IMG/VR virus record: IMGVR_UViG_3300050509_000438
Coordinates: 14,416-78,415 of that record
DNA from: a virus
Reading direction: 5' to 3' (one strand)
DNA: 64,000 nt
Below the pieces are notes generated by a model. The model was not told the origin of the DNA. It saw only the letters and a program-made list of their open reading frames with translations, and searched no databases. Within the stretch, counting starts at the first letter, position 1; the number at the start of each line of letters is the position of its first letter. Below, piece after piece: positions 15,535-57,773 of the stretch. The translations under genes were made by a program, and so were the position numbers.

Positions 15535-15563
15535 AAGAGAGATCATCACTGATCTCTCTTTTA
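15535..15563. terminator. 10-bp perfect hairpin between terminase and portal genes
   Basis: AAGAGAGATC-atcact-GATCTCTCTT (15535-15560). On the plus strand it runs into TTTT; on the minus strand it directly abuts the terminase stop (15561-15563). Confidence 0.5.
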
Positions 15564-21917: not shown

Positions 21918-22135
21918 ATCAGTTCATTGATTCGTTTGTAACATGTGCTGCGCGATATATTAAGTATTTCAGCAACCTCCTCCCATCTCTTTGTTTTAAG
22001 CAGTTCGCGTTGCTGCTCTTTTTGCTCTTCTGTGAATACAGGACGTTGTATTATTACCATCCCATTCTTCTTGCGCTGATAGTATGTTCGTTTTAATTCT
22101 TCGCTGGTCAGCTTGTAGTATTTTTTTCGCCCCAT
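21914..22135 (-). CDS. Small HTH DNA-binding protein
   Basis: 73 aa. The C-terminal WEEVAEILNISRSTCYKRINEL is a helix-turn-helix of the resolvase/sigma-r4 type. Confidence 0.5.
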   Translation of the reverse strand: MGRKKYYKLTSEELKRTYYQRKKNGMVIIQRPVFTEEQKEQQRELLKTKRWEEVAEILNISRSTCYKRINELI

Positions 22136-22578
22136 AGCGCAGAAAATTGAAAATAAAAATCATCCCATGTTTTGATCAGGAAGTACTTGCCGCCGGAAGC
22201 TTCGATCTCTGCCTGAAACTTCTTCTGATCCTCGCGCTGCCGATCCTTACCAACCTTGACTTCCCAGGAAGTGAACTGCCCCTGAATTACCGCGGCGATA
22301 TCCCCAATCCCCTTACTCTCCTTGCTGCGTGGTATGAAGCGGCCCTTCTTGACCGTAATACGATGGCCTACCACATTATGAACATGCTCTGGCTGGATGT
22401 ACCTGCCTTCACTGGCCTGGCGCCATGCTTTGACTCCGCGGTACTTGAAGAACGCCAGCACGGCCTTGGTGAGATCGTTCGCTGTCTTGTCGCTGAAGGT
22501 CTTCTTGGGGCGACAGTGCTCAGGAATGTTCGCGTATTCCTGTTTGGAAATTATGGTGGCCAGGTCGCGGAGGGTCAT
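22108..22578 (-). CDS. VRR-NUC family nuclease
   Basis: GIGDIAAVIQGQFTSWEVKVGKDRQREDQKKFQAEIEASGGKYFLIKT matches the VRR-NUC PD-(D/E)xK core (D...E-x-K...Q). Start set at the internal ATG 22578. Confidence 0.65.
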   Translation of the reverse strand: MTLRDLATIISKQEYANIPEHCRPKKTFSDKTANDLTKAVLAFFKYRGVKAWRQASEGRYIQPEHVHNVVGHRITVKKGRFIPRSKESKGIGDIAAVIQGQFTSWEVKVGKDRQREDQKKFQAEIEASGGKYFLIKTWDDFYFQFSALWGEKNTTS

Positions 22579-22580
22579 AA

Positions 22581-22907
22581 TTAGTTGCCTTCCTTTTGAT
22601 TTGACTGAACAAGAGTCAAAGTATTTGGATTCCAAAATTGATTTGCAGTATCTGCCAGATACGCCAACTGGTATCCATCTAAGGTGTCATTGTAGGCTCT
22701 CCAGCTTTGCGCGTGGTCATCCATATAAATTCCTCCGATCTCTAAAAGTTCATCGCATTTAATGATGCACTGAATTGCCAGAAGAGGTTCTTTAAGACGA
22801 GCTTCGCCACTCATGTGCCCTTCCTCAACATCCGGATCAGTGATAGTAGCTAATACTTTCTTGTGGGTGATGATTCTGATGTGTAGTGATACGATTTCTA
22901 TTTTCAT
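22581..22907 (-). CDS. Hypothetical protein
   Basis: Start set at ATG 22907, which forms an ATGA overlap with the HAD gene stop. No motif recognised. Confidence 0.45.
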   Translation of the reverse strand: MKIEIVSLHIRIITHKKVLATITDPDVEEGHMSGEARLKEPLLAIQCIIKCDELLEIGGIYMDDHAQSWRAYNDTLDGYQLAYLADTANQFWNPNTLTLVQSNQKEGN

Positions 22908-23284
22908 AAATAAGAATTTTCTATAAACCATTCCTCTAATGCCATCCAATCCACATACGGCTTCTTGCCATCTTCCCGGATCAAAGGTACGCCAGCATTC
23001 TTATCGTCGATATTGCAATGACAGTAGACCTTCCGTGATCCTGTTTCATACTCTGGATTGCACATGACATATTTGAACTCTATCGAATTATTTCGAGCCC
23101 ACTCCTGTACGTCATCCAGCAAATGACCTGTGCGCATGGTCATCAGGATGAACTCATGACCGGCGTTTCTGAGCTTATGAAGAACCTCCACGGCATGCGG
23201 TACAGTTGGCCCCACGTAAGGATTCCAGTTCTCTACAAGCGTGCCGTCAAAATCAAGTTCTATGAGTTTACGCGTTGTCACCAC
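22904..23284 (-). CDS. Small HAD-superfamily phosphatase (candidate GmhB-equivalent, heptose-1,7-bisphosphate phosphatase)
   Basis: 126 aa. HAD motif I (LIELDFDGTLV) is present. Directly downstream of, and overlapping, the heptose kinase gene. The substrate assignment is contextual only. Confidence 0.5.
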   Translation of the reverse strand: MVTTRKLIELDFDGTLVENWNPYVGPTVPHAVEVLHKLRNAGHEFILMTMRTGHLLDDVQEWARNNSIEFKYVMCNPEYETGSRKVYCHCNIDDKNAGVPLIREDGKKPYVDWMALEEWFIENSYL

Positions 23285-24185
23285 TCACCTCCTCCCATCT
23301 CTTGATCAGTTCTTCCTTCGTTATTGCATGGACACCAGCATAACGACATACCTCTGAAGCCGCAATGTTGGCAAGACTAACTCCGTCCTGAATGTCCTCA
23401 TTCAAAGCAGTCATCATACCCACTACTCCCGTTACGGTGTCACCGGCACCACAGACATCCACGATATTAATTTTGTGTCCATTGGTCCGTCCAGCCATAC
23501 CTTCGTTGTTGGTGTACATGATCCCAGACTCACCTTGCGTTACGATGAACCATCGACTATATAACTCCGGCCATTGTGGCATCGCATCAAACTCCTTTTG
23601 GTTACACTTGATTACAGTAGATCCCTTGAATCTAGCGTAGTCCCTCTTCGCGTCCACCACCACTGGGATCTTATAATGTAGCGAAAGTTCCATGATCGCG
23701 TTGATCAACGAGTCAGAGAGACACCCCTTATGGTAATCAGCAAGCACAATGCAGTCGTACTTACCCATCGTGGCTTCTAGTTCCTTCCACCAGGAATACG
23801 CGGTGAACGGCAGCCACTCGATCTGCATGGGATCGATCTCGTCGTCGATGCGCAGCAGGTGATGACTTCCGGACATGATGCGCATCTTCTTGGAATGCTT
23901 GCCTTCATGGGTTTTGATGTTGTCGTTGTACTCCATAGGCCAGCAGTAGCCGCCGTTGCTATGGATGCAGAACAAGTCTGTCGGCACGCCCATGCCCACA
24001 AGATTCATAAACACATTGCCAGCTCCACCGGGTCTGCTGAAGGCGATCTGTTGATTGACCACTGGCACAGGTGCCTCCGGGCTGATGCGGTCGACGGAGC
24101 CGAGAATGTAAGCGTCTTCGATGAAATCACCGATGACTGCTATCTTGAGTTCGGCGGCACGAGTGAGGAGGGCGTGGAGGTTCAT
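23268..24185 (-). CDS. hldA: D-glycero-beta-D-manno-heptose-7-phosphate kinase (HldE N-terminal-domain / HldA type)
   Basis: KIAVIGDFIEDAYILGSVDRISPEAPVPVV...RPGGAGNVFMNL closely parallels the E. coli HldE kinase domain (GDVMLDRYW.G...RISPEAPVPVV...RPGGAANVA). Ribokinase-family VCGAGDTVTG sits near the C-terminus. Confidence 0.85.
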   Translation of the reverse strand: MNLHALLTRAAELKIAVIGDFIEDAYILGSVDRISPEAPVPVVNQQIAFSRPGGAGNVFMNLVGMGVPTDLFCIHSNGGYCWPMEYNDNIKTHEGKHSKKMRIMSGSHHLLRIDDEIDPMQIEWLPFTAYSWWKELEATMGKYDCIVLADYHKGCLSDSLINAIMELSLHYKIPVVVDAKRDYARFKGSTVIKCNQKEFDAMPQWPELYSRWFIVTQGESGIMYTNNEGMAGRTNGHKINIVDVCGAGDTVTGVVGMMTALNEDIQDGVSLANIAASEVCRYAGVHAITKEELIKRWEEVSGDNA

Positions 24186-24400
24186 GCTAAAAAGTTATAT
24201 CGTTTTAATCCGTTATCTTGAGATATTTCAACTGGCATTTCTACAGGAGCAGGCTGTTGATGTTCATCTATAAACTCATCGAGTTCCATTGCCTCTCGTG
24301 AGAATTCCGGTAAAATTAAATCCGAAGTTATATGCTGGAGAGTCAATTCCCCAAAACAATTGGTGAACTCCTGTTGTGCGTCAAGTACGGAGTTCATCAA
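24182..24400 (-). CDS. Hypothetical small protein
   Basis: 72-aa ORF that overlaps both neighbours by 4 nt. Confidence 0.45.
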   Translation of the reverse strand: MMNSVLDAQQEFTNCFGELTLQHITSDLILPEFSREAMELDEFIDEHQQPAPVEMPVEISQDNGLKRYNFLA

Positions 24401-24618
24401 TCGTTATTGCTTTTTGTGTACCCCGGCGGATTCGGTGCGTCACAGGAGCGCTTCATCTGCCATTCAGCAAGTGCTTTATTGTATTCCCTCATTGATTCTT
24501 CATAAGAATATGGACCGACATAGTCATCCCGATTAGGCTCCTGCGGCTTAATGCTCTCCATATACTCATTCCACTCCTTGAGCTTCTGTTCGTAGGCGGC
24601 TTGTTCTTCTATATTCAT
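24397..24618 (-). CDS. Hypothetical small protein
   Basis: 73-aa ORF, strand-consistent, overlapping the downstream gene by 4 nt. Confidence 0.45.
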   Translation of the reverse strand: MNIEEQAAYEQKLKEWNEYMESIKPQEPNRDDYVGPYSYEESMREYNKALAEWQMKRSCDAPNPPGYTKSNND

Positions 24619-24738
24619 TTTACAATTCTCTTCTTTGGATCCATAACAAACGCGATGAAGTATTTAATCCACTCAGGATGGTTAAGATCGAGATCAAGTC
24701 GTCCTTCTTTTGTTGCACGCACCCATGGAGGCATTCGT

Positions 24739-25191
24739 TTAATCTTCATACGCTTTCAATACCATTTTAATAATGTCCGAACTGCTGATCTTATCACCAA
24801 GCCCATTGGCTGTAGGCTTGTAGAACACCATTGTCGCATGGTGCTGACCGATGACCGGTTTGCCGAGCCATTCGGCACCTTTGACGAGGTAGTCGGGCGT
24901 TGCCTTCGCGATCTCATACAATAGTTCTTCATCACTGTCTATACCGATAACTTCGTCGATCATACTGCGGTTACCACACTGCATTGCCATCAGGTTGATT
25001 TTCCGGATCGCGTACGGGATGATCGGCAGTCGTGAGTTACCTTCTTTAATACGTTCGTCTTCATCGAGCATCACTATCACTTTGCCTTCGGGTCCTGCGA
25101 GAAGGCGGCATTGATTTAATGCGTTAAAATGCCCCACATGGAGCAGGTCTAATTTACCGGTGGTGATCACTTTAGGCATAAGCTGTGGCAC
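24739..25191 (-). CDS. hldC: D-beta-D-heptose-1-phosphate adenylyltransferase (HldE C-terminal-domain / HldC type)
   Basis: Cytidylyltransferase-fold signature TTGKLDLLHVGHFNAL, then IVMLDEDERIK, PDYLVKGAEW and ISSSDIIKMV. These are collinear with the HldE adenylyltransferase half (NGVFDILHAGH...VAVNSD...LVKGGDY...STTNII). Confidence 0.75.
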   Translation of the reverse strand: MPQLMPKVITTGKLDLLHVGHFNALNQCRLLAGPEGKVIVMLDEDERIKEGNSRLPIIPYAIRKINLMAMQCGNRSMIDEVIGIDSDEELLYEIAKATPDYLVKGAEWLGKPVIGQHHATMVFYKPTANGLGDKISSSDIIKMVLKAYED

Positions 25192-25499
25192 ATTTTTATT
25201 AAGTCTTCAAACTGGCCGTAGTTGAACCATATTGATTCTTTTACTTCTTCAGGCTCTGTAGGCTCCACAATCAATTCTATCACACAAGCCGTGGTCTGGT
25301 TCTTCATGGTGACAGAGCCTTCGATGGCCTCAGTAACCATGTAGTATGCATGGTGCTGGTCGCCTTTAATGTCTTTAATGAGTTGAGATCGAAACCCGTC
25401 GATATACCGAAGGAAATATCTCTCAACCTCGTTCACCATGTCCTTACTTATGACTCCGGCTTCCGCCATTGACTCTGTGATTTCTCGTGCTGTTTTCAT
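25167..25499 (-). CDS. Hypothetical protein
   Basis: 110-aa ORF, strand-consistent. Confidence 0.45.
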   Translation of the reverse strand: MKTAREITESMAEAGVISKDMVNEVERYFLRYIDGFRSQLIKDIKGDQHHAYYMVTEAIEGSVTMKNQTTACVIELIVEPTEPEEVKESIWFNYGQFEDLIKMCHSLCLK

Positions 25500-26110
25500 G
25501 CTGCCTCTCTTTTATACTCCGGAAATGTCTCCAAAAATAACTTAACATTCTTCTCGATCTTCACCACACCACGTTTGTAGTAATCATGCTGGCGATTCAC
25601 GATACGCTTGAAGAGGCGAGATGTGTTCTTCTTACTCACCGCTACGAGCAGCGCTTGCCTGTAACCGCTGACATCGAGGTACCAGGCAATACCTTGATCA
25701 TAATGGAATCTGTTAACAGCATCATCGAATGCTCGATCGGTTTCAACACTGAGACCTTTCAATTCAAATACTAAGCTTAGCGCTCTGCTATCTCCATCCA
25801 TTTTGCATCTTGCAGGAACCCCAAACCTATTAGATCGGTACCATTCATGTTGTCGTCTTAAATCATGCACCCATAATAATTGCTGACAAATGGGGTCAGT
25901 TTTAAAAGTTCTTGCCATAGAAAGAGCTTTTTCAATATCCTGGTGTTCATAATTTGCTTGATGAGGTTGCATTATGCAATCTTCAACCAATCTCCCAAAG
26001 GCAAATATCTCTTCCAAATCGGACGGATCTTGAAAATCAGGATTGATCATTTTCTGTAGTTTTTTCAGATCGCTATTGCTTATGTAATGATGATTAAAAT
26101 ATGAATCCAT
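25496..26110 (-). CDS. PD-(D/E)xK exonuclease candidate (partner of RecT)
   Basis: KMDGDSRALSLVFELKGLS (D...E-x-K) followed by HYDQGIAWYLD (Q-x-x-x-Y). Lies in a recombination module with RecT. Confidence 0.5.
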   Translation of the reverse strand: MDSYFNHHYISNSDLKKLQKMINPDFQDPSDLEEIFAFGRLVEDCIMQPHQANYEHQDIEKALSMARTFKTDPICQQLLWVHDLRRQHEWYRSNRFGVPARCKMDGDSRALSLVFELKGLSVETDRAFDDAVNRFHYDQGIAWYLDVSGYRQALLVAVSKKNTSRLFKRIVNRQHDYYKRGVVKIEKNVKLFLETFPEYKREAA

Positions 26111-28777: not shown

Positions 28778-29731
28778 TTATGTAAAAGGAACCTGATCGT
28801 CCTTTTTTGTTTTCTTCTTGCCGCCGGTCACCTCCGGTTCATATACCTCGCCGGTCCGCTCGTTGACATCAGCGCGGAACTCGGCTGTCTCACCTTGCGC
28901 CACCAGCGTCGGGTCAGCTACCTCCTCCTGCTGCGCCGGCAGATCAATGGTCTTCTGTTCTTCTTCATCCGGAGCCTCATACTGCTTATACAGGATCACT
29001 GTATCCGGCTGCTTGTACTCCACCTTGAACACATAGTTGATCACGCTCTTCTTAGCCGCCTCGCCGTAGTGCTGCTGCCAGAGCATGCCGCCTTCCTTCA
29101 TCTGGCTTTTGGATCTTCTGATTTTGAGTTCCTCCAGTGTCAGCATGTAATCGCTTGACTTGCCATCAGCCCAGTCTACCGTAACGTACACCGCCATCAC
29201 GGTCTCTTCGCTGGGCCTTGGTACCGGGAATGACATCTCGTGCTTTGTGACGAGTTTGAGTTTTGGGTTGTATGAAAACTGATCTTTATTGAAGACCAGC
29301 ACGGGGTCGTTGACACGCTTGATGGTTGTCATGCGCTCGAGCATCTCTTTTTTTGCAAATGGATCGGGATCAACCTTCATCATCTGCTTCCAGCTACCGT
29401 CCTTCTGCTTAACTCCTTGCGGACGCAGATACAGCTTCTCCGGCGAGACACCATAGGAACCGACCTTGACGAAGGCGGCAAAAATAGAGAAGGGATCACA
29501 TTGCATGAGCTCCGGGTTGGCATTCACCTTCTCCATGAAGGCGAACACATCGCGCTCATATTTCGATGCACCATCTTCGCGCGTGGTGACAGCCTGGTAG
29601 TTCTGGATGTAGCGGTTCTTGATCGCGTCGATCGCCAGAAGGTCTTTTACGTTCTTGGCGGCTGAAATCTGCTGCTCAAGAGCCTTGATCGGATTTGTTT
29701 TCTGTATTTGAGTTTGGTCTGCCATTGTCAT
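28778..29731 (-). CDS. recT: RecT-family single-strand annealing protein
   Basis: 317-aa ORF whose central region (CDPFSIFAAFVKVGSYGVSPEKLYLRP... and VNDPVLVFNKDQFSY) matches the RecT layout. An exonuclease candidate lies in the same operon. The tail ends in KKDDQVPFT. Confidence 0.65.
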   Translation of the reverse strand: MTMADQTQIQKTNPIKALEQQISAAKNVKDLLAIDAIKNRYIQNYQAVTTREDGASKYERDVFAFMEKVNANPELMQCDPFSIFAAFVKVGSYGVSPEKLYLRPQGVKQKDGSWKQMMKVDPDPFAKKEMLERMTTIKRVNDPVLVFNKDQFSYNPKLKLVTKHEMSFPVPRPSEETVMAVYVTVDWADGKSSDYMLTLEELKIRRSKSQMKEGGMLWQQHYGEAAKKSVINYVFKVEYKQPDTVILYKQYEAPDEEEQKTIDLPAQQEEVADPTLVAQGETAEFRADVNERTGEVYEPEVTGGKKKTKKDDQVPFT

Positions 29732-32612: not shown

Positions 32613-32621
32613 TAAAGCAAT

Positions 32622-33668
32622 GTGGATCATACCTTCAAACCACCCTCTTTACTCTCAGTTTGCACAGGTCGTCGTGGAATCGAAATCGGAATTGAGAGAG
32701 CAATTAGATCATTTCGGCGCTTATTCGGTGATAAAGAATGGGAAACCAGAGACGTTATCCAACCTGCCGTTTATGTGGAAATCGAATCCGTTATCGCCTA
32801 CAATCTGGTTGCGCAAATGGAGCAAGGTGTATTGGCTCCCACTCCTGTTTGGACGGACCTTAAAACATTCCCATGGGGGCTATTTCGGAATAAAATATGC
32901 ATCCTCACTGGAGGATATCCATGCCAGCCCTTCAGTACAGCCGGAAAGCAGTTCGGAGTTAATGATCCGCGACACCTCTACCCATATCTCGAATACGGAG
33001 TCGATGCAGTTAAACCTGTTTGCTGCTTCTTCGAAAACGTCAGCAACCACATCAATATCGGATACAGAGAGGTCAGACATTCTTTGGAAACGCTTGGTTA
33101 CACGGTTGAAGAGGGAATATTCTCGGCGGAAGAAGTTGGCGCGCCACACTTACGCAAACGCCTATTCATCCTCGCCGTGGCCGACTCCTACTGCACAGAA
33201 CAGAGTAAGAGACGAGGAGACTTTGCAAAAATGCTTGGCCTTCAGGAAGGCCAACGCGAATCAGAACACGGTTCCTCTTTATCTGGAAGAAAAAGTGAGA
33301 TTATGGAAGACTCCAATATCAAGCGAGTTGGAAGGAGGCAAAATGAAGATATTGATCGGAAAGGACGGTCGTTACAAACTAAGAGATCAAGTGATGGAGT
33401 TGGCCTGGCCAACTCCATCAGCCAGAGATTGGCGCAGCGGAAAAAGCAATCAGCACGAGAAGAATTCCAGACCATTGAACGAAGTTGCTTTCCATCAGGA
33501 CAAGGGCAATACCAGCAAGGATGGGAACATCCTCGTCTTGAATCCCGCATGGGTTTTACAGTTAATGGGTACGACTTTACAGAAGACCTTCTTCGCCTGG
33601 CGGGAAATGCCGTCGTTGAGCAGCAATCTGAACTCGCCTTTAGAACACTCTTAAATAAATTTATATGA
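32622..33668 (+). CDS. DNA (cytosine-5) methyltransferase, with frame anomaly
   Basis: GTG start. Motif I-like LSVCTGRRG, motif IV GGYPCQPFS, motif VI FFENV, motif VIII HLRKRLFILA, motif X LAGNAVV. TRD-type WPTP motifs occur only in the overlapping frame ORF 32620-33654. Confidence 0.7.
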   Translation: MDHTFKPPSLLSVCTGRRGIEIGIERAIRSFRRLFGDKEWETRDVIQPAVYVEIESVIAYNLVAQMEQGVLAPTPVWTDLKTFPWGLFRNKICILTGGYPCQPFSTAGKQFGVNDPRHLYPYLEYGVDAVKPVCCFFENVSNHINIGYREVRHSLETLGYTVEEGIFSAEEVGAPHLRKRLFILAVADSYCTEQSKRRGDFAKMLGLQEGQRESEHGSSLSGRKSEIMEDSNIKRVGRRQNEDIDRKGRSLQTKRSSDGVGLANSISQRLAQRKKQSAREEFQTIERSCFPSGQGQYQQGWEHPRLESRMGFTVNGYDFTEDLLRLAGNAVVEQQSELAFRTLLNKFI

Positions 33669-35763: not shown

Positions 35764-36051
35764 ATGGAAGATATTATCTGTAAGCGTTGTGGCTCCGTCA
35801 ACGATTTCTCTGCCACACCATCAGGTCCTCACCTGAAAGCTACCTGCAATAAGTGTGGCCAGTACATAAAATTCCTGCCTCAACAACAAACAAAACCAAC
35901 CCTTTACTTCGGGAAATACCGCGGCCGCGAGATCTCGTCCATGAATTCCGAGGAGGATCTGCGCTACCTGCAATGGCTTATATCGCAACCCGATCTAAAA
36001 CCAAAGCTTAAGACCGATATTCAGTTCCAACTCAAACGCCTTGGTAAGTGA
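35764..36051 (+). CDS. Zn-ribbon + DUF3820-like protein
   Basis: CKRCGS...CNKCGQ, then YFGKYRGREISSM...LRYLQWL (the FGKYKG...YL-W pattern of DUF3820). Overlaps the primase gene start. Confidence 0.5.
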   Translation: MEDIICKRCGSVNDFSATPSGPHLKATCNKCGQYIKFLPQQQTKPTLYFGKYRGREISSMNSEEDLRYLQWLISQPDLKPKLKTDIQFQLKRLGK

Positions 36052-49920: not shown

Positions 49921-50520
49921 ATGATTGACATCATCCGCGATGAGCTTACCTCTTCCAGGTATGTGCTCACTGAGTTTATTAAAAACGAAGCCAACCTGCA
50001 GTCCATCCAACGCGCCGCAGACATTATGATCACCTGCCTGAAGAACGGCGGTAAGATCATCGCCTGCGGTAACGGCGGTAGTATGTGCGATGCCATGCAC
50101 TTCGCCTCTGAGCTTACCGGGAAGTACAGGAAAGACAGACCTCCTATTGCTGCGCTGGCAATCGGGGATCCTGCGCATTTGAGTTGTGTGGGGAATGATT
50201 ATGGGTACCGGGAAGTCTTTGGACGATACGTTAAGGCGCACGCAAAGACCGGGGATGTGTTACTGGCGCTAAGCACAAGTGGTAATAGTGATAACATAAT
50301 CATTGCTTCACATGCAATGCACATAAAGCAATGTGCGGTTGTCTACATCACAGGTAATGACAAGAACAGTTTGGTTCATAAGACGGCACTTATTGGTGGA
50401 GGTGACTGCTTGATTGAAATACCTCATTCTGGATCGGCAGATAGAATTCAGGAGGTTGGATTGATTGTTATACATGTTTTGTGTAACTTGATAGAAAAAG
50501 GCATCTATGAAGAAGATTAA
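49921..50520 (+). CDS. gmhA: Phosphoheptose isomerase GmhA (SIS domain)
   Basis: MIDIIRDEL...IQRAADIM...GGKIIACGNGGSMCDAMHFASELTGKYRKDRPPIAALAI.DPAHLSCVGNDYGYREVFGRYV...GDVLLALSTSGNS.N...ADRIQEVGLIVIHVLCNLIE is collinear with E. coli GmhA over its whole length. The track ORF extends 44 codons further upstream (49789). Confidence 0.85.
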   Translation: MIDIIRDELTSSRYVLTEFIKNEANLQSIQRAADIMITCLKNGGKIIACGNGGSMCDAMHFASELTGKYRKDRPPIAALAIGDPAHLSCVGNDYGYREVFGRYVKAHAKTGDVLLALSTSGNSDNIIIASHAMHIKQCAVVYITGNDKNSLVHKTALIGGGDCLIEIPHSGSADRIQEVGLIVIHVLCNLIEKGIYEED

Positions 50521-51934: not shown

Positions 51935-52287
51935 CCGGACCTGAAATCCAAATCCGTGAGAAGATCAAAGGCCAGGAGCAGCGCATTGCCAACTGCCAGA
52001 AGAAGATCGAGGCTCTGAATAAGGAACTCGAAGACTATCTGGCCAGCGTGCCTCCGAAGCCTGAGCCATTCGCAGTATTGCCAAAGGAGGATCACCATGA
52101 TTACTGCGGTAAGATTCTGTATCATTCAGAGAAGGCAGCCCATGCAGCGCGGAAGCTGATCAATCGTGATCTCAAGAAGGTAGGTAAGCCTCCGCTCAAG
52201 CGGGCGTATCTGTGCGATAAATGTGAGGCGTGGCACTTGACTACAGTTGAGAGTTGGATACCTTATCCGGAAATGGGTGGCAGGTAG
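51931..52287 (+). CDS. Hypothetical protein (C-terminal CxxC...WH Zn-like motif)
   Basis: 118 aa containing YLCDKCEAWHLTT. Last gene of the plus block; converges on and overlaps the GT2 gene end. Confidence 0.5.
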   Translation: MTGPEIQIREKIKGQEQRIANCQKKIEALNKELEDYLASVPPKPEPFAVLPKEDHHDYCGKILYHSEKAAHAARKLINRDLKKVGKPPLKRAYLCDKCEAWHLTTVESWIPYPEMGGR

Positions 52288-53096
52288 TTCATGATTTGAT
52301 TGCGTAGGTGAGGGTAGCGATCAGCACACCATTCACGTATGTACACCGGCAGTGGCCCAGGAATAGGCACAATGTCATCTCCCTGGAATGGGAACTTACT
52401 CCAATCGAAGACTTCACCGATGCGTGAGTCCATGCCGAGGCCAAAGATATCAACGAGCATATTCTTAGCCTTTACCACATGTTTAACAGGATCTCTAATA
52501 TAACCGGCGTGGTAAATTTCGATCGCATCTTCACGTCCGAAGACATGAACACTATTTGATGCAACATGCTCACCATCATCGTATGAACGACAATGTGATT
52601 TCGCTAATCGGATTACCTCTGTTGAACAAGGTTTCCGTTCTTGAATCACATTTAGCATTGATAAAGGATCTCGCCAAGCATTGTATCTCTTACAAACATA
52701 TGCTTCAACATCATGTTCGATTGCTTCTCGAATGACCGGAAAGCTCCTTGGATAGATGATCTCGTCTGCCTGAAGCAGAACTGTCCAGTCACAACCATTA
52801 GCTTCGAGTATCCCCATGGCAACATTTTGAAAATAGCTCAATTTTTGCCTACCCATCTGAGCGTTCCAATCACTATAAGTTATCTCAAATAATTCACAAT
52901 GGCCTATGGCATTAGAATGAATTAATTCTTCCACAGCGCTTTTTGTTCCATCATTCCCGCCAGCTAATACCACAACATTGTCACACAAGTCCAGCAAGCA
53001 CTGCATTGACTCACGAAAATTGTAGTCTTGACTTATTCCATTCCATACAAATAGACATCCGCCGAGTTTTTTCATACTTTGCGCGCTACGATCCAA
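52263..53096 (-). CDS. Glycosyltransferase (GT2-like) candidate
   Basis: 277 aa. The N-terminal CLFVWNGISQDYNFRESMQCLLDLCDNVVVLAGGNDGT has the layout of GT-A/GT2 enzymes. Sits within the sugar-modification island. Confidence 0.45.
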   Translation of the reverse strand: MDRSAQSMKKLGGCLFVWNGISQDYNFRESMQCLLDLCDNVVVLAGGNDGTKSAVEELIHSNAIGHCELFEITYSDWNAQMGRQKLSYFQNVAMGILEANGCDWTVLLQADEIIYPRSFPVIREAIEHDVEAYVCKRYNAWRDPLSMLNVIQERKPCSTEVIRLAKSHCRSYDDGEHVASNSVHVFGREDAIEIYHAGYIRDPVKHVVKAKNMLVDIFGLGMDSRIGEVFDWSKFPFQGDDIVPIPGPLPVYIREWCADRYPHLRNQIMNYLPPISG

Positions 53097-53602
53097 AAAC
53101 TATACCTATCCTCACCTATATCGAGCCCGTGATCAACCAGATCAAACATCTTTGGCAGATGCTCACCTTTGAAGTCCTTGCCTTCGCCACAGAAAGCGCG
53201 CCGGAACCAGAACATAAATGGGTCATACTTTATGTCAATCATGTGCTCGGGATTGGATTTGTTGTCGTAATAATCACCATCTGGAAGATAGAGCACGAGA
53301 TGACCGCCACTTTTAAGGACATGATACCATGTAATTACTGTTAGATATTGGTCACGGCAATGTTCCAAAAAATGCGATGAAAATATTGTATCAAACTTGT
53401 CTCTCTTAACAAACTTGATCTTATCCCAAAATTCATCGTGAATGCCAACTATATCAACACCCGGGAGAGAGCGGCCATCGAACCCGATCGCTTCAGGTAT
53501 GATCTTATCACCGCCGCATGCAACATCGAGAACCTCGCCCGTAATGTACTTCATCACCTGTGGCAAGTCTCTAACCTTCGCCGCTTCACTCATGTACGCC
53601 AT
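53072..53602 (-). CDS. Class I SAM-dependent methyltransferase
   Basis: Motif I is GEVLDVACGGDKIIPEAIGFDG, with later FDTIFSSHFLEH and LKSGGHLVLY. Confidence 0.65.
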   Translation of the reverse strand: MAYMSEAAKVRDLPQVMKYITGEVLDVACGGDKIIPEAIGFDGRSLPGVDIVGIHDEFWDKIKFVKRDKFDTIFSSHFLEHCRDQYLTVITWYHVLKSGGHLVLYLPDGDYYDNKSNPEHMIDIKYDPFMFWFRRAFCGEGKDFKGEHLPKMFDLVDHGLDIGEDRYSFWIVARKV

Positions 53603-54203
53603 AAGCCCATTGTTTAGTTTTAAGAATTGATTTTATGCGTTCATATTCATCGGCGCCCCATGGAGATCTCCACCCGAACCAGGCGCTTCCGTTCCACTTC
53701 TTGTGATAGTCTGGGAAGACAATTGCATTCATCCCTGGCAGCATCTCAGGCTTCCACAGTGATCGGTGAGCCTCCGGGTCATTGTTATCATCCTCCGCCA
53801 TTCCAAACAGATCGGTAAGAGGCGTGAAGATGATCTGTTTGTGAGAGAGCATAATCATTGTACGGATGAGTTTCATACCATCCTCCAGTTTCAAGTGCTC
53901 AATACCATCAGAACAGATTGCTACATCGAATGGATTAATGACCTTCGCATCGATAATCCAGTCCGGACAAGCAAGTTGTAGCACATCCATTTGCCTGAAA
54001 AACTGTTGCTCCTCCTTATGATCAAGTTCTCTCGGCAGCACATCCACATAACACCGCTTACTAAAACCGAGCTTCGGAGTGTTCGGTGCGAACGCACACA
54101 TCAGATCAATCATCGACTTGCCTTCGGTGTCTCCACAGATCGCTCTCATCACGTCCATGTATACTTCGATGTTGCCTACTACGTTTGGGAAGGTGAGGGT
54201 CAT
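53586..54203 (-). CDS. Methyltransferase-like protein (degenerate class I fold)
   Basis: MIDLMCAFAPNTP...FDVAICSDGIEHLKLEDGMKLIRTM has the class I MTase post-I/II/III layout with a weak motif I. Confidence 0.4.
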   Translation of the reverse strand: MTLTFPNVVGNIEVYMDVMRAICGDTEGKSMIDLMCAFAPNTPKLGFSKRCYVDVLPRELDHKEEQQFFRQMDVLQLACPDWIIDAKVINPFDVAICSDGIEHLKLEDGMKLIRTMIMLSHKQIIFTPLTDLFGMAEDDNNDPEAHRSLWKPEMLPGMNAIVFPDYHKKWNGSAWFGWRSPWGADEYERIKSILKTKQWAYGVHE

Positions 54204-55618
54204 GATAAATAATATCCCAGTTGATCAATAATCAAATCAATATCCCATGTAATGCATGGTGGTCGTTGTACATTAACTACACAATCTTTGCCAACCTCCG
54301 ATAAAACATCGTGATAGCATCCTGCCTTCGCTACTGGACAGGGCCTCTGTAGTACAAATAAGTTACTCCGATCATAATACCGATACTTTGGATCAACAGA
54401 TCCAAAAAACACAATGCTCTTCACACCACAGGCCATCGCTATTTGAGCACAACCCGAGTCGATCCCGATAAAGTACGAAGCCCCAGCAATGACATAAGCG
54501 AGCACTGGCTCTGTGGGAGTGTTGATGTGGACAGCAGCATCTCGCCGTCCGCCGATCTGAAACACCTTGTATTTTGTGTGGGCCTCGATCCATTTAACCA
54601 CCTCCGCCCAATCCACCCCATGCACATTCCTGTGCGCCATTGCCGTATCATCCACATGCAGCACAATATAGTCATCGAAGAGCCGTGTCTCCGCCGTGGG
54701 CGCGAAGTTAAGCTTAGGATTACGCAGCGTATACTCTGTGATCCCCGCCGCCTTGTAATACGACTCCAGCACCAGCTTCCTTGGCTCTACCTCGTAAGCC
54801 ATGTCCAGGTTGATGATCCGGTAGCCGCCGAGGTCTTCCTTCAGGTGCGGCGCGTACTCGACCTGGAAATAGTGCTTCTCGAAGAGGTTATAGTACGGAG
54901 GCAAGCAGTCAAGGATCACCCGGTAGCCGTCGTTATGCAGGCGCTCCAGCAGCGGCTCAGCCATGATCACGTCGCCCATGGCCCCTGTACGGTGTACGAT
55001 CACAGGCTCGCGGTAGGGCTGATGGAAGAGGGCGTGGAACCCGAACGTCTTCTGCCTGGGAGCATGCATCTCGAAGCTGAAGCGGTGCGCGAGGTCTTCA
55101 GGAGCGAACTTGTAGCCGTATCGCTCTTCCAGGATCTTCCGGTACAACCGGCAGATCACCTCGTCCTCCGGAGCATATACACCATTATATGCCACAAACT
55201 CATCCGTACCCATGGCATGCATCAGCCGATAGCTCCGCATGCTGAACCCACCATTGCCCACGTTACGTCCATCCCTGTAGTTCCACGGCGCGCCGATGTA
55301 GTCATAGTCCATGAACTCGTCAGTCCATGCGCTGGAATCAAGCACATACCCGTCAAACTGGATTAAAAGAACATGTGAAGTTTTAATATGCTTCCATAGC
55401 TCACAACAAACAAATTTATTGTAGTTTAACCAATCAAGCTTTTCAATAAGCACACACTTGAAGTCATCGTCCTGATATTCTACATCAGTGAAAAATAAAG
55501 TTTCGGCAGGATGTATTTGTTCAAGAGATTTTTTGATTGATGAAATAGTTGGCCCATAATCTCTGGTTGTTATTGCCACCATGGTAATATCCTTTAGGTG
55601 CTTCATGCGTATTGCCAT
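54200..55618 (-). CDS. Fusion of DUF5672-like domain and GT9 (ADP-heptose heptosyltransferase-like) domain
   Basis: 472 aa. The N-terminal half has YDYIGAPWNYRDGRNVGNGGFSMRS (DUF5672 signature). The C-terminal half has VIVHRTGAMGDVIMAEPLLERL and FIGIDSGCAQIAMACGVKSIVFFGS (GT9 signatures). Confidence 0.65.
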   Translation of the reverse strand: MAIRMKHLKDITMVAITTRDYGPTISSIKKSLEQIHPAETLFFTDVEYQDDDFKCVLIEKLDWLNYNKFVCCELWKHIKTSHVLLIQFDGYVLDSSAWTDEFMDYDYIGAPWNYRDGRNVGNGGFSMRSYRLMHAMGTDEFVAYNGVYAPEDEVICRLYRKILEERYGYKFAPEDLAHRFSFEMHAPRQKTFGFHALFHQPYREPVIVHRTGAMGDVIMAEPLLERLHNDGYRVILDCLPPYYNLFEKHYFQVEYAPHLKEDLGGYRIINLDMAYEVEPRKLVLESYYKAAGITEYTLRNPKLNFAPTAETRLFDDYIVLHVDDTAMAHRNVHGVDWAEVVKWIEAHTKYKVFQIGGRRDAAVHINTPTEPVLAYVIAGASYFIGIDSGCAQIAMACGVKSIVFFGSVDPKYRYYDRSNLFVLQRPCPVAKAGCYHDVLSEVGKDCVVNVQRPPCITWDIDLIIDQLGYYLS

Positions 55619-56150: not shown

Positions 56151-56155
56151 GTGGA

Positions 56156-56539: not shown

Positions 56540-56940
56540 AACTTATTGATGATGTACCTTTTCGCATCTTCGATATTCTGATTTCCATTGCCATCATAGC
56601 CACCTGTGGAAAACGGTGAATGGTTATAACCTTCATCAATTCTCTTCATCAGTGCTTGCTTCGTGGTTTCTTCAGGACTCCATTGTCCTTCAAATCCATA
56701 GCAAGAGCAGTGTGATCCGTGGACCTCATACAACTTCCCTTCTTTTTCAAAGAGAAACCACGATGAAGAGTCGCAACCATAATCACCAACAGATTCGTAT
56801 GCGATAAGTATTTTACACTTACGCAACGACTTCTTTAATTCTTTATCTACTTGCTCATACTCAGCATTACCATACTGGGAGACAATGTGAGCCTTCACCT
56901 GTGTGGTATTCATGTCCTTTAAATCTTCTAGTGCTATCAT
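56536..56940 (-). CDS. Hypothetical protein
   Basis: 134-aa ORF with 4-nt overlaps on both sides. Confidence 0.5.
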   Translation of the reverse strand: MIALEDLKDMNTTQVKAHIVSQYGNAEYEQVDKELKKSLRKCKILIAYESVGDYGCDSSSWFLFEKEGKLYEVHGSHCSCYGFEGQWSPEETTKQALMKRIDEGYNHSPFSTGGYDGNGNQNIEDAKRYIINKL

Positions 56941-57773
56941 AACTCCTTCATCATTTTATCAACCAAATAAACCAATCCTTCCTGAAATTGAAAATCCCAC
57001 CCATTGGGTCCGATCGGCTGCACATTCGGCGCGAAGTCACAGACTTCCAGGAGACGATGCGACTTTAACCCTTCAGCGATCGCGTAGCACATACTCTGGT
57101 TACCGATAAAAAACTTGCAGCACTTGATGGCGATCGCAAGCTCAAGGAAGTTATCCACGACCAGCAAAGGTAACTCAAATCCCCAATCCTTCTGGAACTT
57201 CTCGTGTTCCTGCGGCAGCCCACAGAACATCAGTTGCTCCTTGTATTTCTCCATGAACCAGTAGGTCAGGTACGGCTTGTTGTAGCGCGAGGTGCGGTTG
57301 ATGAGAACTTTCTGATTGGCTTTGTTGTGGTACCATGATGGGAAATTATGCCACGGCACATGCAACCATGGCTTACTCAAATCGCACTGCGTATCCGGGT
57401 AGCAGAACCCGAGCCATCGGTGGATTGAGCCGTAGGGCATGCCGATGAATTTGGTCCTGTGAACATCGAGATCTACAACGATCTCCTCTCCCTTCCAGAT
57501 GTTGAAGCTATTAACGTATGCCTGGGCCTCGATAAGGGGCTTCATCATGTCGTAGGCATGCTGCGGAAACATGGACTCATAAGGATGCTCTGCGCCCTGG
57601 TAATAGAACGCCTTCTGGTCAAGCCACATGTAGATGTCGGCCTTGGCGCCCAGGTTCTCGCAGGCGGTTTTGACGGCGGGGAGGAACGAGATCAGGTCGC
57701 CTGAAGGACCCGATGACTTGAATGATATGGTTTTCATTTCCATGTTCTGTTTGATAGCACAGATCTGATACAA
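56937..57773 (-). CDS. GT-B glycosyltransferase, GT9-like (second heptosyltransferase candidate)
   Basis: ISFKSSGPSGDLISFLPAVK (N-terminal GT9-like) and CKFFIGNQSMCYAIAEGLKSHRLLE (the f-I-G-n-D-S-G...A-x-A-l-g pattern). Weaker than in 54200-55618. Confidence 0.4.
   Translation of the reverse strand: MYQICAIKQNMEMKTISFKSSGPSGDLISFLPAVKTACENLGAKADIYMWLDQKAFYYQGAEHPYESMFPQHAYDMMKPLIEAQAYVNSFNIWKGEEIVVDLDVHRTKFIGMPYGSIHRWLGFCYPDTQCDLSKPWLHVPWHNFPSWYHNKANQKVLINRTSRYNKPYLTYWFMEKYKEQLMFCGLPQEHEKFQKDWGFELPLLVVDNFLELAIAIKCCKFFIGNQSMCYAIAEGLKSHRLLEVCDFAPNVQPIGPNGWDFQFQEGLVYLVDKMMKEL

What the first reader, a model, noticed from the sequence alone, without database searches (positions are those of the whole stretch)
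22904..25191. Stand-alone ADP-heptose activation genes (kinase, HAD phosphatase, adenylyltransferase) in a phage operon
Seen:
- 23268-24185 matches the kinase half of bifunctional HldE/RfaE (RISPEAPVPVV, RPGGAGNV, GAGDT).
- 24739-25191 matches the adenylyltransferase half (TTGKLDLLHVGH..., LVKG, ISSSDII).
- 22904-23284 opens with HAD motif I (DFDGTL) and overlaps the kinase gene.

Established: sedoheptulose-7-P -> GmhA -> kinase -> GmhB phosphatase -> adenylyltransferase yields ADP-D-glycero-beta-D-manno-heptose.

Inference: together with the GmhA at 49921-50520, the phage appears to make its own activated heptose. That would matter most if the host (apparently a Bacteroidota member) lacks the pathway. 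The two HldE halves are separate genes interleaved with small unknown ORFs. I am not aware of a characterised phage system built on ADP-heptose.
Basis: partly seen in the sequence, partly recalled or inferred. Interest (0 to 1): 0.8.

Follow-up and report, generated by a model that had tools for sequence, protein, structure and literature searches.

The report
Phage-encoded ADP-heptose pathway feeding heptosyltransferases
An uncultured ~78-kb crAss-like phage of Bacteroidota encodes all four enzymes needed to make ADP-heptose, plus two heptosyltransferases, another glycosyltransferase and two methyltransferases, so it probably builds its own heptose-containing glycan; the pathway genes are real but widespread in phages, and what gets glycosylated is still unknown.

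Summary
On the minus strand lie an HldC-like nucleotidyltransferase (24739-25191), an HldA-like PfkB kinase (23268-24185) and a small HAD phosphatase (22904-23284). A GmhA isomerase lies at 49921-50520(+). The kinase and GmhA assignments are strong. The NTase is weak alone but firm through its syntenic orthologues. The HAD is BT0820-type, not GmhB.

An operon at 52263-57773(-) encodes a DUF5672+GT9 fusion whose best structural match is the protein heptosyltransferase TibC. It also encodes a second GT9 enzyme, a GT2-family enzyme and two methyltransferases. The kinase and the GT fusion share at least 17 phage contigs of ~67-82 kb, judged by matching contig lengths.

The module is not unprecedented. 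Cyanophage P-SSM2 (2005) has the same NTase-kinase-HAD order. PHROGs holds all four families. At least 566 IMG/VR stretches encode the kinase, with the NTase adjacent in 78 of the 80 examined. A phage heptosyl-5hmC DNA system built from different enzymes has been reconstituted.

Best reading: a self-supplied ADP-D,D-heptose line for phage heptosyltransferases. The acceptor is unresolved: a protein, perhaps virion (~0.4), host LPS-core-type glycan (~0.35), or DNA (~0.05). This is a new variant of a known kind, of moderate interest.

The parts
49921..50520 (+). GmhA-like sedoheptulose-7-phosphate isomerase (SIS_2), 199 aa; step 1
   Evidence: NF001628 225.6 bits E=4.1e-67, and TIGR00441 164.7 bits; both are the best hits but fall below the curated cut-offs of 265 and 209. 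PF13580 82.3 bits. phrog_14703. The public call is 199 aa.
23268..24185 (-). [quoted passage not shown]
   Evidence: TIGR02198 188.5 bits E=1.6e-55, with the next PfkB family at 31 bits. HldA 4e84 E=1.6e-24 with an identical VDRISPEAPVPVV motif. GAGDT and 40+ invariant columns across 34 phage orthologues.
22904..23284 (-). Small capless HAD phosphatase (BT0820 family), 126 aa; inferred to act as heptose-1,7-bisphosphate 7-phosphatase, step 3
   Evidence: NF046079 69.6 bits with no GmhB hit. PDB 2OBB E=4.3e-15, with motif I DFDGT and motif IV IDD aligned. phrog_1238. The same family lies beside the kinase in L004, L090, L092 and L093.
24739..25191 (-). HldC-like heptose-1-phosphate nucleotidyl(adenylyl)transferase, 146-150 aa (likely start 25179); step 4
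   Evidence: TIGR02199 41.8 bits against TagD 32.5. Syntenic orthologues score 73.9 and 78.7 against 23.5 and 31.6. It is 34% identical to the P-SSM2 NTase. It lies on the same strand beside the kinase in 78/80 viral loci.
24182..24749 (-). Three small ORFs (72, 73 and 44 aa) between NTase and kinase; lineage-specific and not part of the module
   Evidence: No family hits and no homologue in 169 related loci. Relatives have a single unrelated 61-67-aa ORF at this position.
54200..55618 (-). Bifunctional glycosyltransferase: N-terminal DUF5672 (GT-A-like) plus C-terminal GT9 heptosyltransferase fold with an invariant Cys/His cluster; candidate consumer of ADP-heptose
   Evidence: PF18922 68.7 bits, and PF01075 19.8 bits. 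AF2 model pLDDT 89.9. The top 30 Foldseek hits are all ADP-heptose GT9 enzymes, with TibC best at 3.9e-12. The profile's best PDB hit is TibC. C423, C430, H432, C442 and C451 are invariant.
56937..57773 (-). Second, compact GT9-fold glycosyltransferase (266-278 aa)
   Evidence: AF2 model pLDDT 92.7. The top 9 PDB hits are all GT9 enzymes: 3tov, WaaC and WaaF. hhalign to the GT9 domain of the fusion gives 95.6%, E=1.1e-8.
53586..54203 (-). Methyltransferase-like protein, 205 aa (divergent paralogue of the adjacent MT)
   Evidence: hhalign against the MT176 family gives probability 95.9%, E=5.8e-9. There is no direct Pfam or NCBIfam hit.
53072..53602 (-). Class I SAM-dependent methyltransferase, 176 aa
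   Evidence: PF13489 30.5 bits, and PF08241 26.6 bits. It is conserved next to the GT fusion in 38/79 viral loci.
52263..53096 (-). GT2-family (GT-A) glycosyltransferase, 270-277 aa
   Evidence: The window copy has no direct hit. Of 21 orthologues (31-47% identical), 9 hit Glyco_tranf_2_4 and 5 hit Glycos_transf_2, best E=8.8e-11.

Best explanation

Inferred steps, from family assignments and the established HldE/HldA-HldC pathway:
1. GmhA (49921-50520) isomerises host sedoheptulose-7-P.
2. The HldA-type PfkB kinase (23268-24185) phosphorylates C1 to give the beta-1,7-bisphosphate.
3. The small BT0820-type HAD (22904-23284) removes the 7-phosphate. It would be a non-orthologous replacement of GmhB.
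4. The HldC-like nucleotidyltransferase (24739-25191) makes the ADP-sugar. No HldD epimerase is present, so the sugar stays D,D.
5. The donor is used by two phage GT9-fold heptosyltransferases (54200-55618, fused to a DUF5672 GT-A-like domain; and 56937-57773). Together with a GT2 enzyme and two methyltransferases in the same conserved operon, they assemble a methylated, heptose-containing glycan.

What is shown: the gene families, the folds, and their linkage and co-occurrence.
What is inferred: substrates, the identity of the nucleotide, and above all the acceptor.

My preferred acceptor is a protein, most plausibly a virion component, O-heptosylated in the cytoplasm as TibC does to autotransporters (about 0.4). 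An LPS-core-type host glycolipid is nearly as likely (about 0.35).

The stated confidence of 0.65 is for steps 1-5, meaning ADP-heptose is made and consumed by the phage GT9 enzymes. It does not cover the acceptor.
For: Pathway enzymes:
- Kinase: rfaE_dom_I 188.5 bits against <=31 for other PfkB families; HldA 4e84 1.6e-24.
- GmhA: 225.6 bits.
- NTase family: 74-79 bits on rfaE_dom_II against 24-32 on TagD in syntenic orthologues.
- HAD: catalytic motifs intact and aligned to 2OBB.

Linkage:
- NTase lies on the same strand next to the kinase in 78/80 viral loci, and a GT9 gene lies within 10 kb in 20/80.
- In this clade, the BT0820-type HAD and GmhA were found only on contigs that also carry the kinase.

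Consumers:
- GT fusion: the top 30 structural hits are all ADP-heptose-dependent GT9 enzymes.
- Second GT9: top 9 hits likewise.
- Many orthologues carry a precomputed PF01075 hit.
- Kinase and GT fusion appear to share at least 17 contigs of 67-82 kb, from contig lengths that occur in both hit lists. Record names confirm it for 4 contigs.

For a protein acceptor:
- TibC is the best structural match (3.9e-12, against ~1e-8 for WaaC/WaaF) and the best sequence-profile match.
- An invariant Cys/His cluster sits just downstream of where TibC's Cys4 iron finger lies.
- The N-lobes are compact.
- No operon protein has a membrane segment.
- The GT fusion is conserved at 47-80% identity across the clade.
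Against: - Every enzyme scores below its curated NCBIfam cut-off, so none is a certified equivalog.
- The window's own NTase barely prefers HldC over TagD (41.8 against 32.5 bits).
- The HAD is not GmhB and its family has no known substrate.
- The window copy of the GT9 domain is below Pfam's gathering score (19.8 against 22).

Against a protein acceptor:
- The sugar-pocket motif is GxDSG as in WaaC/WaaF, not TibC's P300 or AAH's S294. TibC's W305 is not conserved and K230 is replaced by His-Arg.
- TibC's N-terminal beta-barrel is replaced by DUF5672.
- Cellular DUF5672 genes sit in LPS-core clusters.
- The second GT9 is closer to WaaC/WaaF than to TibC.
- No acceptor was identified.
Confidence: 0.65

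Rival explanations
1. The donor pathway is the same, but the acceptor is a host envelope glycolipid or glycan (LPS/LOS inner core or similar). The phage would remodel the cell surface during infection, for example to block superinfection or to stop progeny re-adsorbing to debris. This was proposed for the cyanophage LPS-like clusters.
For: - GT9 is overwhelmingly an LPS-core family.
- The phage GT9a keeps the WaaC-type GxDSG motif.
- GT9b's best matches are WaaC, WaaF and the Veillonella GT9.
- Stand-alone DUF5672 in Zoogloea dura lies in a cluster of GT4, GT4, GT9, GT9, GT25, DUF5672 and O-antigen ligase, with a PfkB kinase ~5 kb beyond. Of 80 cellular DUF5672 loci, 14 have a GT9 gene within 10 kb.
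- A mix of GT2 and methyltransferases is typical of polysaccharide assembly.
- Sullivan et al. 2005 (PMC1079782) put forward this hypothesis for P-SSM2.
- The tail protein carries a SASA esterase, implying a polysaccharide receptor.
Against: - The best structural and profile match of the conserved fusion is TibC, not WaaC.
- The reduced N-lobes differ from the lipid-A-Kdo-binding lobes of WaaC/WaaF.
- No priming transferase, flippase, polymerase or ligase is encoded in the operon.
- The GT fusion behaves as a conserved core gene of an apparently lytic crAss-like lineage, not as a variable moron.
Confidence: 0.35
2. The heptose is attached to phage DNA as a hypermodified cytosine, as in the reconstituted contig-53 system that makes 5-heptosyl-hydroxymethylcytosine.
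For: - The phage encodes a C5 cytosine methyltransferase at 32622-33668.
- A phage cluster with a HAD/kinase, a cytidylyltransferase and a GT-B makes mono- and di-heptosyl-5hmC (10.1101/2023.12.21.572611).
- GT9 enzymes are GT-B fold.
Against: - No TET/JBP/5mYOX or dCMP hydroxymethylase was detected, either in my Pfam scans of nearly all window ORFs of at least 50 aa from 20.5 kb to the end (the structural block before 20.5 kb got only PHROGs scans of its large proteins) or in precomputed Pfam hits on public gene calls for about 51 kb of the ~78-kb genome. So there is no hydroxyl acceptor on the base.
- The methylase is ~20 kb from the GT operon, not adjacent.
- The known DNA heptosyltransferase resembles T4 beta-GT, BshA and MshA. 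Here T4 beta-GT is absent from the top 50 structural hits.
Confidence: 0.05
3. The kinase, HAD and NTase activate a different sugar phosphate (the same isomerase-kinase-phosphatase-NTase logic as the phage arabinosyl pathway), or the NTase is a TagD-like CDP-glycerol synthase. The heptose assignment would then be an annotation artefact.
For: - All scores are below the curated equivalog cut-offs.
- The window NTase scores 41.8 on HldC against 32.5 on TagD, and its best PDB hit is TagD 1coz.
- The HAD belongs to a family of unknown substrate.
- The phage Ara pathway uses an SIS isomerase, a kinase, a HAD and an NTase (PMC13326640).
Against: - The kinase's margin for the heptose-kinase model is ~157 bits, and it shares the HldA-specific ISPEAPVPVV motif.
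- The isomerase matches GmhA models, not KdsD/KpsF-type arabinose-5-P isomerase.
- The Ara pathway uses APH/protein-kinase-fold kinases, not PfkB.
- Orthologous NTases clearly prefer HldC.
- Two GT9 heptosyltransferase-fold enzymes co-occur with the pathway.
Confidence: 0.1

Closest known systems
[quoted passage not shown] Burkholderia, PDB 4e84 and 5x9q)
   Same: The order of chemistry is the same. The phage has a GmhA-like SIS isomerase, an HldA-like PfkB kinase with the ISPEAPVPVV and GAGDT motifs, and an HldC-like HxGH/ISxxxI nucleotidyltransferase, with kinase and NTase as separate proteins.
   Different: The phosphatase is a 126-aa BT0820-type HAD instead of HAD-IIIA GmhB. There is no HldD epimerase. 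All proteins are diverged below the equivalog cut-offs. The genes are scattered over three places in a phage genome.
NTase-kinase-small HAD module of T4-like cyanophages (P-SSM2 PSSM2_309-311, S-SSM7, S-CAM1; phrog_7878/8133/1238)
   Same: The three families occur in the same order and on the same strand. The NTase is 34% identical and the kinase 28% identical. The third gene also opens with HAD motif I, although it is annotated 'phosphoheptose isomerase'.
   Different: The host phylum and phage type differ (myovirus against crAss-like). The cyanophage kinases are shorter (~250 aa). In P-SSM2 no SIS gene is annotated within 5 kb of the module. The partners there are epimerases, a carbamoyltransferase and 2OG oxygenases, not the DUF5672-GT9 operon. 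Neither system has been characterised experimentally.
BAHT protein O-heptosyltransferases TibC/AAH (PDB 4rap, 4rb4; eLife 2014, PMC4358343)
   Same: TibC is the best structural (E=3.9e-12) and profile match. Shared features are the GT-B fold with a reduced N-lobe, the conserved beta-phosphate Thr (T226 aligned with T321), a conserved Cys-rich insertion at the equivalent C-lobe position, and a soluble cytoplasmic enzyme. TibC uses ADP-D,D-heptose, the form this phage would make.
   Different: DUF5672 replaces the N-terminal beta-barrel. GxDSG replaces P300/S294. W305 is not conserved, and K230 is replaced by His-Arg. TIGR04414 scores 17 bits against a cut-off of 200. The metal site and the oligomeric state are unverified.
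Phage 5hmC-heptose DNA hypermodification cluster (contig 53; bioRxiv 10.1101/2023.12.21.572611)
   Same: It is a phage-encoded sugar-activation module (phosphatase/kinase plus a CTP_transf-like NTase) with a GT-B that transfers one or two heptoses.
   Different: That system has a HAD-APH fusion kinase and a T4 beta-GT-like transferase, and is embedded next to a C5-MT and a TET-like oxidase. Here the kinase is PfkB, the transferases are GT9, there is no oxidase, and the methylase is distant.
Virus-encoded virion glycosylation machineries: mycobacteriophage GT/methyltransferase operons and chlorovirus PBCV-1 A064R
   Same: These are soluble virus-encoded GTs combined with methyltransferases, and in chloroviruses with virus-encoded nucleotide-sugar synthesis, acting independently of host glycosylation pathways.
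   Different: They use different GT families and sugars. Heptose and GT9 enzymes have not been reported there. Virion glycosylation is only a hypothesis here.

Membership tests
HldA / HldE domain I (heptose-7-phosphate kinase, TIGR02198) | PfkB fold with the catalytic GAGD(T) anion-hole motif | tested here: met
   PF00294 49.2 bits. CGAGDT is invariant in 34 orthologues.
HldA / HldE domain I (heptose-7-phosphate kinase, TIGR02198) | Scores best on, and above the curated cut-off of, the equivalog model | tested here: inconclusive
   It is the best hit by ~157 bits (188.5 against 31), but below the cut-off of 345. The best solved relative is HldA 4e84, 1.6e-24, with the next PfkB at 8e-5.
HldA / HldE domain I (heptose-7-phosphate kinase, TIGR02198) | N-terminal (V)DRISPEAPVPV motif shared by HldA and HldE | tested here: met
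   The motif is identical in the alignment to 4e84. R33, S35, P36, E37, P39 and V40 are invariant in the phage clade.
HldA / HldE domain I (heptose-7-phosphate kinase, TIGR02198) | Phosphorylates D-glycero-D-manno-heptose-7-P at O1 (beta) | not testable with these tools
   This needs an enzyme assay.
HldC / HldE domain II (heptose-1-phosphate adenylyltransferase, TIGR02199) | Cytidylyltransferase-like fold with HxGH and C-terminal ISxxxI motifs | tested here: met
   PF01467 25.9 bits, above the gathering score of 21. LHVGH and ISSSDII are present.
HldC / HldE domain II (heptose-1-phosphate adenylyltransferase, TIGR02199) | Closer to HldC than to TagD or CoaD | tested here: inconclusive
   The window copy scores 41.8 against 32.5 bits, and its best PDB hit is TagD. 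Syntenic orthologues score 73.9 and 78.7 against 23.5 and 31.6. All are below the cut-off of 181.5.
HldC / HldE domain II (heptose-1-phosphate adenylyltransferase, TIGR02199) | Genetic coupling to the heptose kinase | tested here: met
   It lies on the same strand, mostly abutting the kinase, in 78/80 viral loci, and is apparently fused in 5.
GmhB (HAD-IIIA heptose-1,7-bisphosphate phosphatase) | Matches GmhB / HAD-IIIA models | tested here: not met
   No GmhB or HAD-IIIA hit at E<=0.01. The best hit is the BT0820 family at 69.6 bits, with 2OBB at 4.3e-15.
GmhB (HAD-IIIA heptose-1,7-bisphosphate phosphatase) | HAD catalytic motifs (DxDxT; downstream DD) | tested here: met
   DFDGT and NIDDKN align with the 2OBB motifs.
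GmhA (sedoheptulose-7-phosphate isomerase) | SIS_2 domain that scores best on GmhA equivalog models | tested here: inconclusive
   The top three hits are all GmhA models (225.6, 175.6 and 164.7 bits), with DiaA at 118.7. Each is somewhat below its cut-off of 265, 276 or 209.
CAZy GT9 heptosyltransferases | GT-B fold most similar to ADP-heptose-dependent enzymes | tested here: met
   For the fusion, the top 30 PDB hits are all TibC, WaaC, WaaF or the Veillonella GT9. For the 266-aa protein, the top 9 hits are all GT9.
CAZy GT9 heptosyltransferases | Passes Pfam PF01075 gathering score | tested here: inconclusive
   The window copy scores 19.8 against 22. Many orthologues at 47-63% identity carry a precomputed PF01075 hit.
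BAHT (TibC/AAH autotransporter heptosyltransferases, TIGR04414) | Cys4 iron-finger insertion in the C-lobe | tested here: inconclusive
   C423, C430, H432, C442 and C451 are invariant. They begin ~18 residues after the last aligned position, as C339-C370 do in TibC. The geometry and the metal could not be checked.
BAHT (TibC/AAH autotransporter heptosyltransferases, TIGR04414) | Conserved ligand residues T226, K230, R286, W305 and the P300/S294 selector; N-terminal beta-barrel | tested here: not met
   Only the T226 equivalent is kept. K230 aligns with H325 (R326 is invariant), P300 with D383 of GxDSG, and W305 with Gln. R286 falls in an unaligned insert. The N-terminus is DUF5672. TIGR04414 scores 17.2 bits against a cut-off of 200.
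Phage 5hmC glycosylation clusters (C5-MT + 5mYOX/TET + GT) | TET/JBP-type oxidase or hydroxymethylase next to a C5-MT and a GT | tested here: not met
   The C5-MT is present. No oxidase or hydroxymethylase was found in any scan. The GT operon is ~20 kb away.

The most novel reading that the evidence does not exclude
A widespread, uncultured crAss-like lineage of Bacteroidota phages runs a self-contained protein O-heptosylation system. It makes its own ADP-D,D-heptose and uses a TibC-like, metal-finger-bearing GT9 enzyme fused to a GT-A domain, plus a second GT9, a GT2 and two methyltransferases, to coat virion proteins with a methylated heptoglycan. This would be the first heptosylated virus particle and the first BAHT-like enzyme working outside autotransporter glycosylation.
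Probability: 0.3. Interest if true: 0.75.

Novelty: new variant of a known kind. Interest (0 to 1): 0.5.

Why it matters
Phage-encoded heptose-activation genes have been in databases since 2005 and turn out to be very common in viral metagenomes, yet nobody has shown what phages do with the sugar. This genome offers an unusually complete and compact test case: all four donor-synthesis steps, two candidate heptosyltransferases and tailoring enzymes in one ~78-kb phage.

If the acceptor is a virion protein, that would extend virus-encoded glycosylation to tailed phages of Bacteroidota and to a new sugar. This would bear on phage-host recognition, immune recognition of phages and particle stability. 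If the acceptor is the host LPS core, it would be a lytic-phage example of surface remodelling that brings its own precursor supply.

There are also practical corrections:
- The small HAD (phrog_1238, PSSM2_311) is mislabelled 'phosphoheptose isomerase'.
- BT0820-type HADs gain a candidate substrate class.
- DUF5672 gains a context, namely LPS-core clusters and viral multi-GT proteins.

Tried and rejected
- A megablast of the region against 50,697 phage records found nothing.
- The first IMG/VR scan with the single kinase sequence found no confirmed relative, because the patterns were too specific. The profile-based scan then worked.
- Single-sequence PDB searches of the GT fusion and of the 205-, 277- and 278-aa proteins gave nothing usable.
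- The hhalign comparison of the GT family profile (A1) with the single 278-aa sequence was not significant. It became significant only profile against profile.
- The SDR next to the GT in a relative (L006) could not be assigned to HldD: GalE 115.8, RmlB 97.8 and HldD 89.5 bits.
- P277 showed no detectable relation to DUF5672, GT9 or the MT. Scanning its orthologues resolved it as GT2.
- Literature searches for DUF5672, BT0820 and phage heptosyltransferases returned nothing relevant.
- I suspected a frameshifted or dual-coding methylase at 32.6 kb. I rejected this because frame B aligns to homologues in one piece over residues 51-345.
- Concatenating proteins with GS linkers for the Pfam scans produced spurious Serglycin hits. 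It also missed at least one weak domain (Acb2_Tad1_hairpin) that precomputed annotation reports. The 'no TET' statement therefore rests on both sources and is not absolute.
- A look-up of the 465-aa edge protein found no record.

Full report
**1. Observation**

The window is a phage. It has a portal at 12877-15327, a large terminase at 15561-17723 and a tail fibre at 3203-8086. It is the reverse complement and a circular permutation of a 78,362-bp JGI contig (Ga0075420_100000026). It is therefore part of a complete genome of about 78.3 kb.

- The kinase (23268-24185, 305 aa) scores 188.5 bits (E=1.6e-55) on TIGR02198 rfaE_dom_I, and at most 31 bits on any other PfkB family.
- Its best solved relative is Burkholderia HldA (4e84, E=1.6e-24), with an identical VDRISPEAPVPVV segment. 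The next PfkB structure is at 8e-5.
- The SIS protein (49921-50520) scores 225.6 bits on the sedoheptulose-7-P isomerase model NF001628.
- The nucleotidyltransferase (24739-25191; public start at 25179) is weak taken alone: 41.8 bits on rfaE_dom_II against 32.5 on TagD, with TagD 1coz as its best PDB hit.
- Its syntenic orthologues in two sister phages score 73.9 and 78.7 bits on rfaE_dom_II, against 23.5 and 31.6 on TagD. The family is therefore HldC-like.
- The HAD (22904-23284, 126 aa) has intact motifs. However, it belongs to the BT0820 family (NF046079 69.6 bits; PDB 2OBB 4.3e-15) and gave no GmhB or HAD-IIIA hit.
- The three small ORFs between NTase and kinase have no homologue in 169 related loci.

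**2.

A minus-strand operon at 52263-57773 encodes the probable consumers of the sugar.

ORF 54200-55618 is a fusion of DUF5672 with a GT9-like domain.
- An AlphaFold model built on 35 orthologues (pLDDT 89.9) has only ADP-heptose-dependent GT9 enzymes among its 30 best PDB matches. It is led by the protein O-heptosyltransferase TibC (E=3.9e-12), ahead of WaaC and WaaF (~1e-8).
- The sequence profile also finds TibC first.
- Five C-terminal residues (C423, C430, H432, C442, C451) are invariant. They lie where TibC carries its Cys4 iron finger.

ORF 56937-57773 is a second, compact GT9-fold protein.
- Its model has pLDDT 92.7, and its top nine hits are all GT9.
- It is related to the first GT9 domain at 95.6% hhalign probability.

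The rest of the operon:
- ORF 53072-53602 is a SAM methyltransferase.
- ORF 53586-54203 is a divergent paralogue of it (hhalign 95.9%).
- ORF 52263-53096 belongs to a GT2 family. Of 21 orthologues, 9 hit Glyco_tranf_2_4 and 5 hit Glycos_transf_2.
- None of these proteins has a membrane segment.

**3. Linkage and distribution**

The kinase has about 100 clusters of phage-clade relatives (37-74% identity), many on contigs of 78-82 kb. The GT fusion has 3025 relatives, and the best 120 are 47-100% identical.

- Seventeen contig lengths of 67-82 kb appear in both lists. Record names confirm co-residence for SRR33471261_159419 and three IMG/VR contigs.
- In sister phages the core of GT9b, GT fusion, MT-like protein, MT and GT2 is kept, while other genes vary (an SDR, another HAD, DUF1643).
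- Within the clade, GmhA and the BT0820-type HAD were detected only on contigs that also hold the kinase.
- About half of the large GT-bearing contigs are not in the kinase list. The donor pathway therefore looks accessory to a more conserved transferase operon. This is an inference from truncated lists.

Beyond the clade:
- A kinase profile finds at least 566 stretches in IMG/VR.
- In the best 80 of these, an HldC-like NTase is on the same strand in 78, usually abutting the kinase and apparently fused to it in five. A GT9 gene lies within 10 kb in 20.
- Cyanophage P-SSM2 has the same order of NTase, kinase and small HAD. Its third gene is mis-annotated 'phosphoheptose isomerase' although it opens with IDIDGT.
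- PHROGs already holds all four families.

**4. Host**

- Shine-Dalgarno cores occur upstream of 8 of 107 genes, which equals background.
- The portal's only cultured relatives are Cellulophaga and Flavobacterium podophages at 21-23% identity.
- The 14 kb outside the window encodes a crAss_MUZ_C protein.
- Sister contigs of 78-82 kb are binned with Cyclobacteriaceae, Chitinophagaceae, Mucilaginibacter and 'Bacteroidetes' MAGs.

A Bacteroidota host is therefore well supported. Whether that host lacks ADP-heptose is unknown. A chromosomal Bacteroidota kinase ~35% identical to the phage one exists.

**5. Mechanism**

The established bacterial route runs GmhA, then HldA or HldE domain I, then GmhB, then HldC or HldE domain II (textbook knowledge of the pathway). 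It maps onto the four phage proteins, with the BT0820-type HAD as a non-orthologous stand-in for GmhB. [quoted passage not shown] That is the form TibC uses.

The two GT9 enzymes, the GT-A-like DUF5672 domain, the GT2 enzyme and the two methyltransferases would then build a methylated heptose-containing glycan. The gene families, folds and linkage are shown. Substrates and products are inferred.

**6. The acceptor is the open question**

For a protein acceptor:
- TibC is the best match by both structure and profile.
- The Cys/His cluster is invariant and correctly placed.
- The N-lobes are reduced.
- The enzymes are soluble.
- The fusion shows core-gene-like conservation.

For an LPS-core-type acceptor:
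- The phage GT9a has the WaaC-type GxDSG motif where TibC has Pro300. It lacks TibC's Trp305, and has His-Arg at Lys230.
- GT9b is closer to WaaC and WaaF.
- Stand-alone DUF5672 in Zoogloea dura lies in a cluster of GT4, GT4, GT9, GT9, GT25, DUF5672 and O-antigen ligase, with a PfkB kinase ~5 kb beyond. Of 80 cellular DUF5672 loci, 14 have a GT9 gene nearby.

DNA is unlikely. There is a C5-methylase (32622-33668), but no TET/JBP oxidase or hydroxymethylase was detected. The published heptosyl-5hmC system also uses a T4 beta-GT-like enzyme, a HAD-APH fusion and a cytidylyltransferase placed next to the MT and TET.

My estimates are protein 0.4, envelope glycan 0.35, DNA 0.05 and a non-heptose sugar 0.1.

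**7. Comparison and novelty**

The pathway genes are new members of a known, widespread but experimentally untouched phage module. What is distinctive here:
- all four steps are present in one crAss-like Bacteroidota phage;
- a BT0820-type HAD replaces GmhB;
- the pathway is partnered with a conserved DUF5672-GT9 fusion that is TibC-like in fold yet fails BAHT membership on ligand residues, N-terminal domain and model score.

I therefore rate it a new variant of a known kind, with interest 0.5.

**Caveats**
- All NCBIfam scores are below the curated cut-offs.
- Co-occurrence rests partly on matching contig lengths.
- Part of the Pfam survey used concatenated proteins, which lose weak hits.

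Noticed in passing
window 32620-33668 (+): The C5 cytosine DNA methylase is in frame 32622-33668 (PF00145; 1346 phage records by tblastn). Public gene calls use the fully overlapping same-strand frame 32620-33654 (344 aa, no domain). Both frames are open for ~345 codons, while the third frame has 23 stops. The alternative open frame is unexplained.
   Followed up: partly
window 58728-59066 (+): A 112-aa protein carries a precomputed Acb2_Tad1_hairpin Pfam hit on the identical public contig (L005 6541-6879), so it is a candidate anti-CBASS/anti-Thoeris nucleotide sponge. A sister phage has a 'Sequestin' domain protein at the equivalent place (L006 5528-5848). My concatenated Pfam scan did not recover it.
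   Followed up: no
window 50507-51217 (+) and 57734-58351 (-): Two HNH endonuclease genes (the first with an AP2 domain) sit immediately next to sugar genes. One directly follows GmhA and the other directly precedes the second GT9 gene. This suggests homing-endonuclease-associated mobility of these cassettes.
   Followed up: no
window 781-2814 (-): A 677-aa tail-associated protein has Gly_rich_2 and SASA (sialate O-acetylesterase-type) domains, which hints that the phage receptor is an O-acetylated polysaccharide.
   Followed up: no
L170 17074-21042 (genome part outside the window): A 1322-aa protein has the crAss_MUZ_C (crAss-like muzzle) domain. Together with the distant portal hits to Cellulophaga and Flavobacterium podophages, this places the phage near crAss-like viruses.
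   Followed up: partly
L010 5755-6099 (P-SSM2 PSSM2_311) and phrog_1238: The cyanophage gene annotated 'phosphoheptose isomerase', and the PHROG label derived from it, is a small HAD phosphatase (IDIDGT motif I), not an SIS isomerase. It is a propagated mis-annotation.
   Followed up: yes
window 44660-45223 (+): A small serine recombinase (Resolvase 150 bits plus an HTH) sits in an otherwise lytic-looking genome. Its role (inversion switch, resolution or integration) is unknown.
   Followed up: no
window 60476-60883 (-): A PAS-domain protein (135 aa) overlaps the start of the adjacent 200-aa gene (59877-60479). In a sister phage the equivalent region holds an Amidase_3 lysin. A sensor domain is unusual in a phage lysis region.
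   Followed up: no
window 36001-38000: There is a local GC rise to 0.561 against ~0.47 elsewhere, coinciding with the 653-aa Prim-Pol gene (36048-38009). It may be a recent acquisition.
   Followed up: no
L248 4779-16857 (Zoogloea dura) and 80 cellular loci L171-L250: Stand-alone DUF5672 proteins are common in proteobacterial chromosomes (at least 574 hits). In Zoogloea the gene lies inside an LPS-core/O-antigen-ligase cluster. This gives a functional context for an uncharacterised domain family.
   Followed up: partly
window 22108-22635, 25496-26110, 28778-29731 (-): A Cas4-like/PDDEXK nuclease, a DUF3799 PDDEXK protein and a RecT recombinase flank the heptose genes. Sugar activation is thus embedded in a recombination module, not next to the GT operon.
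   Followed up: no
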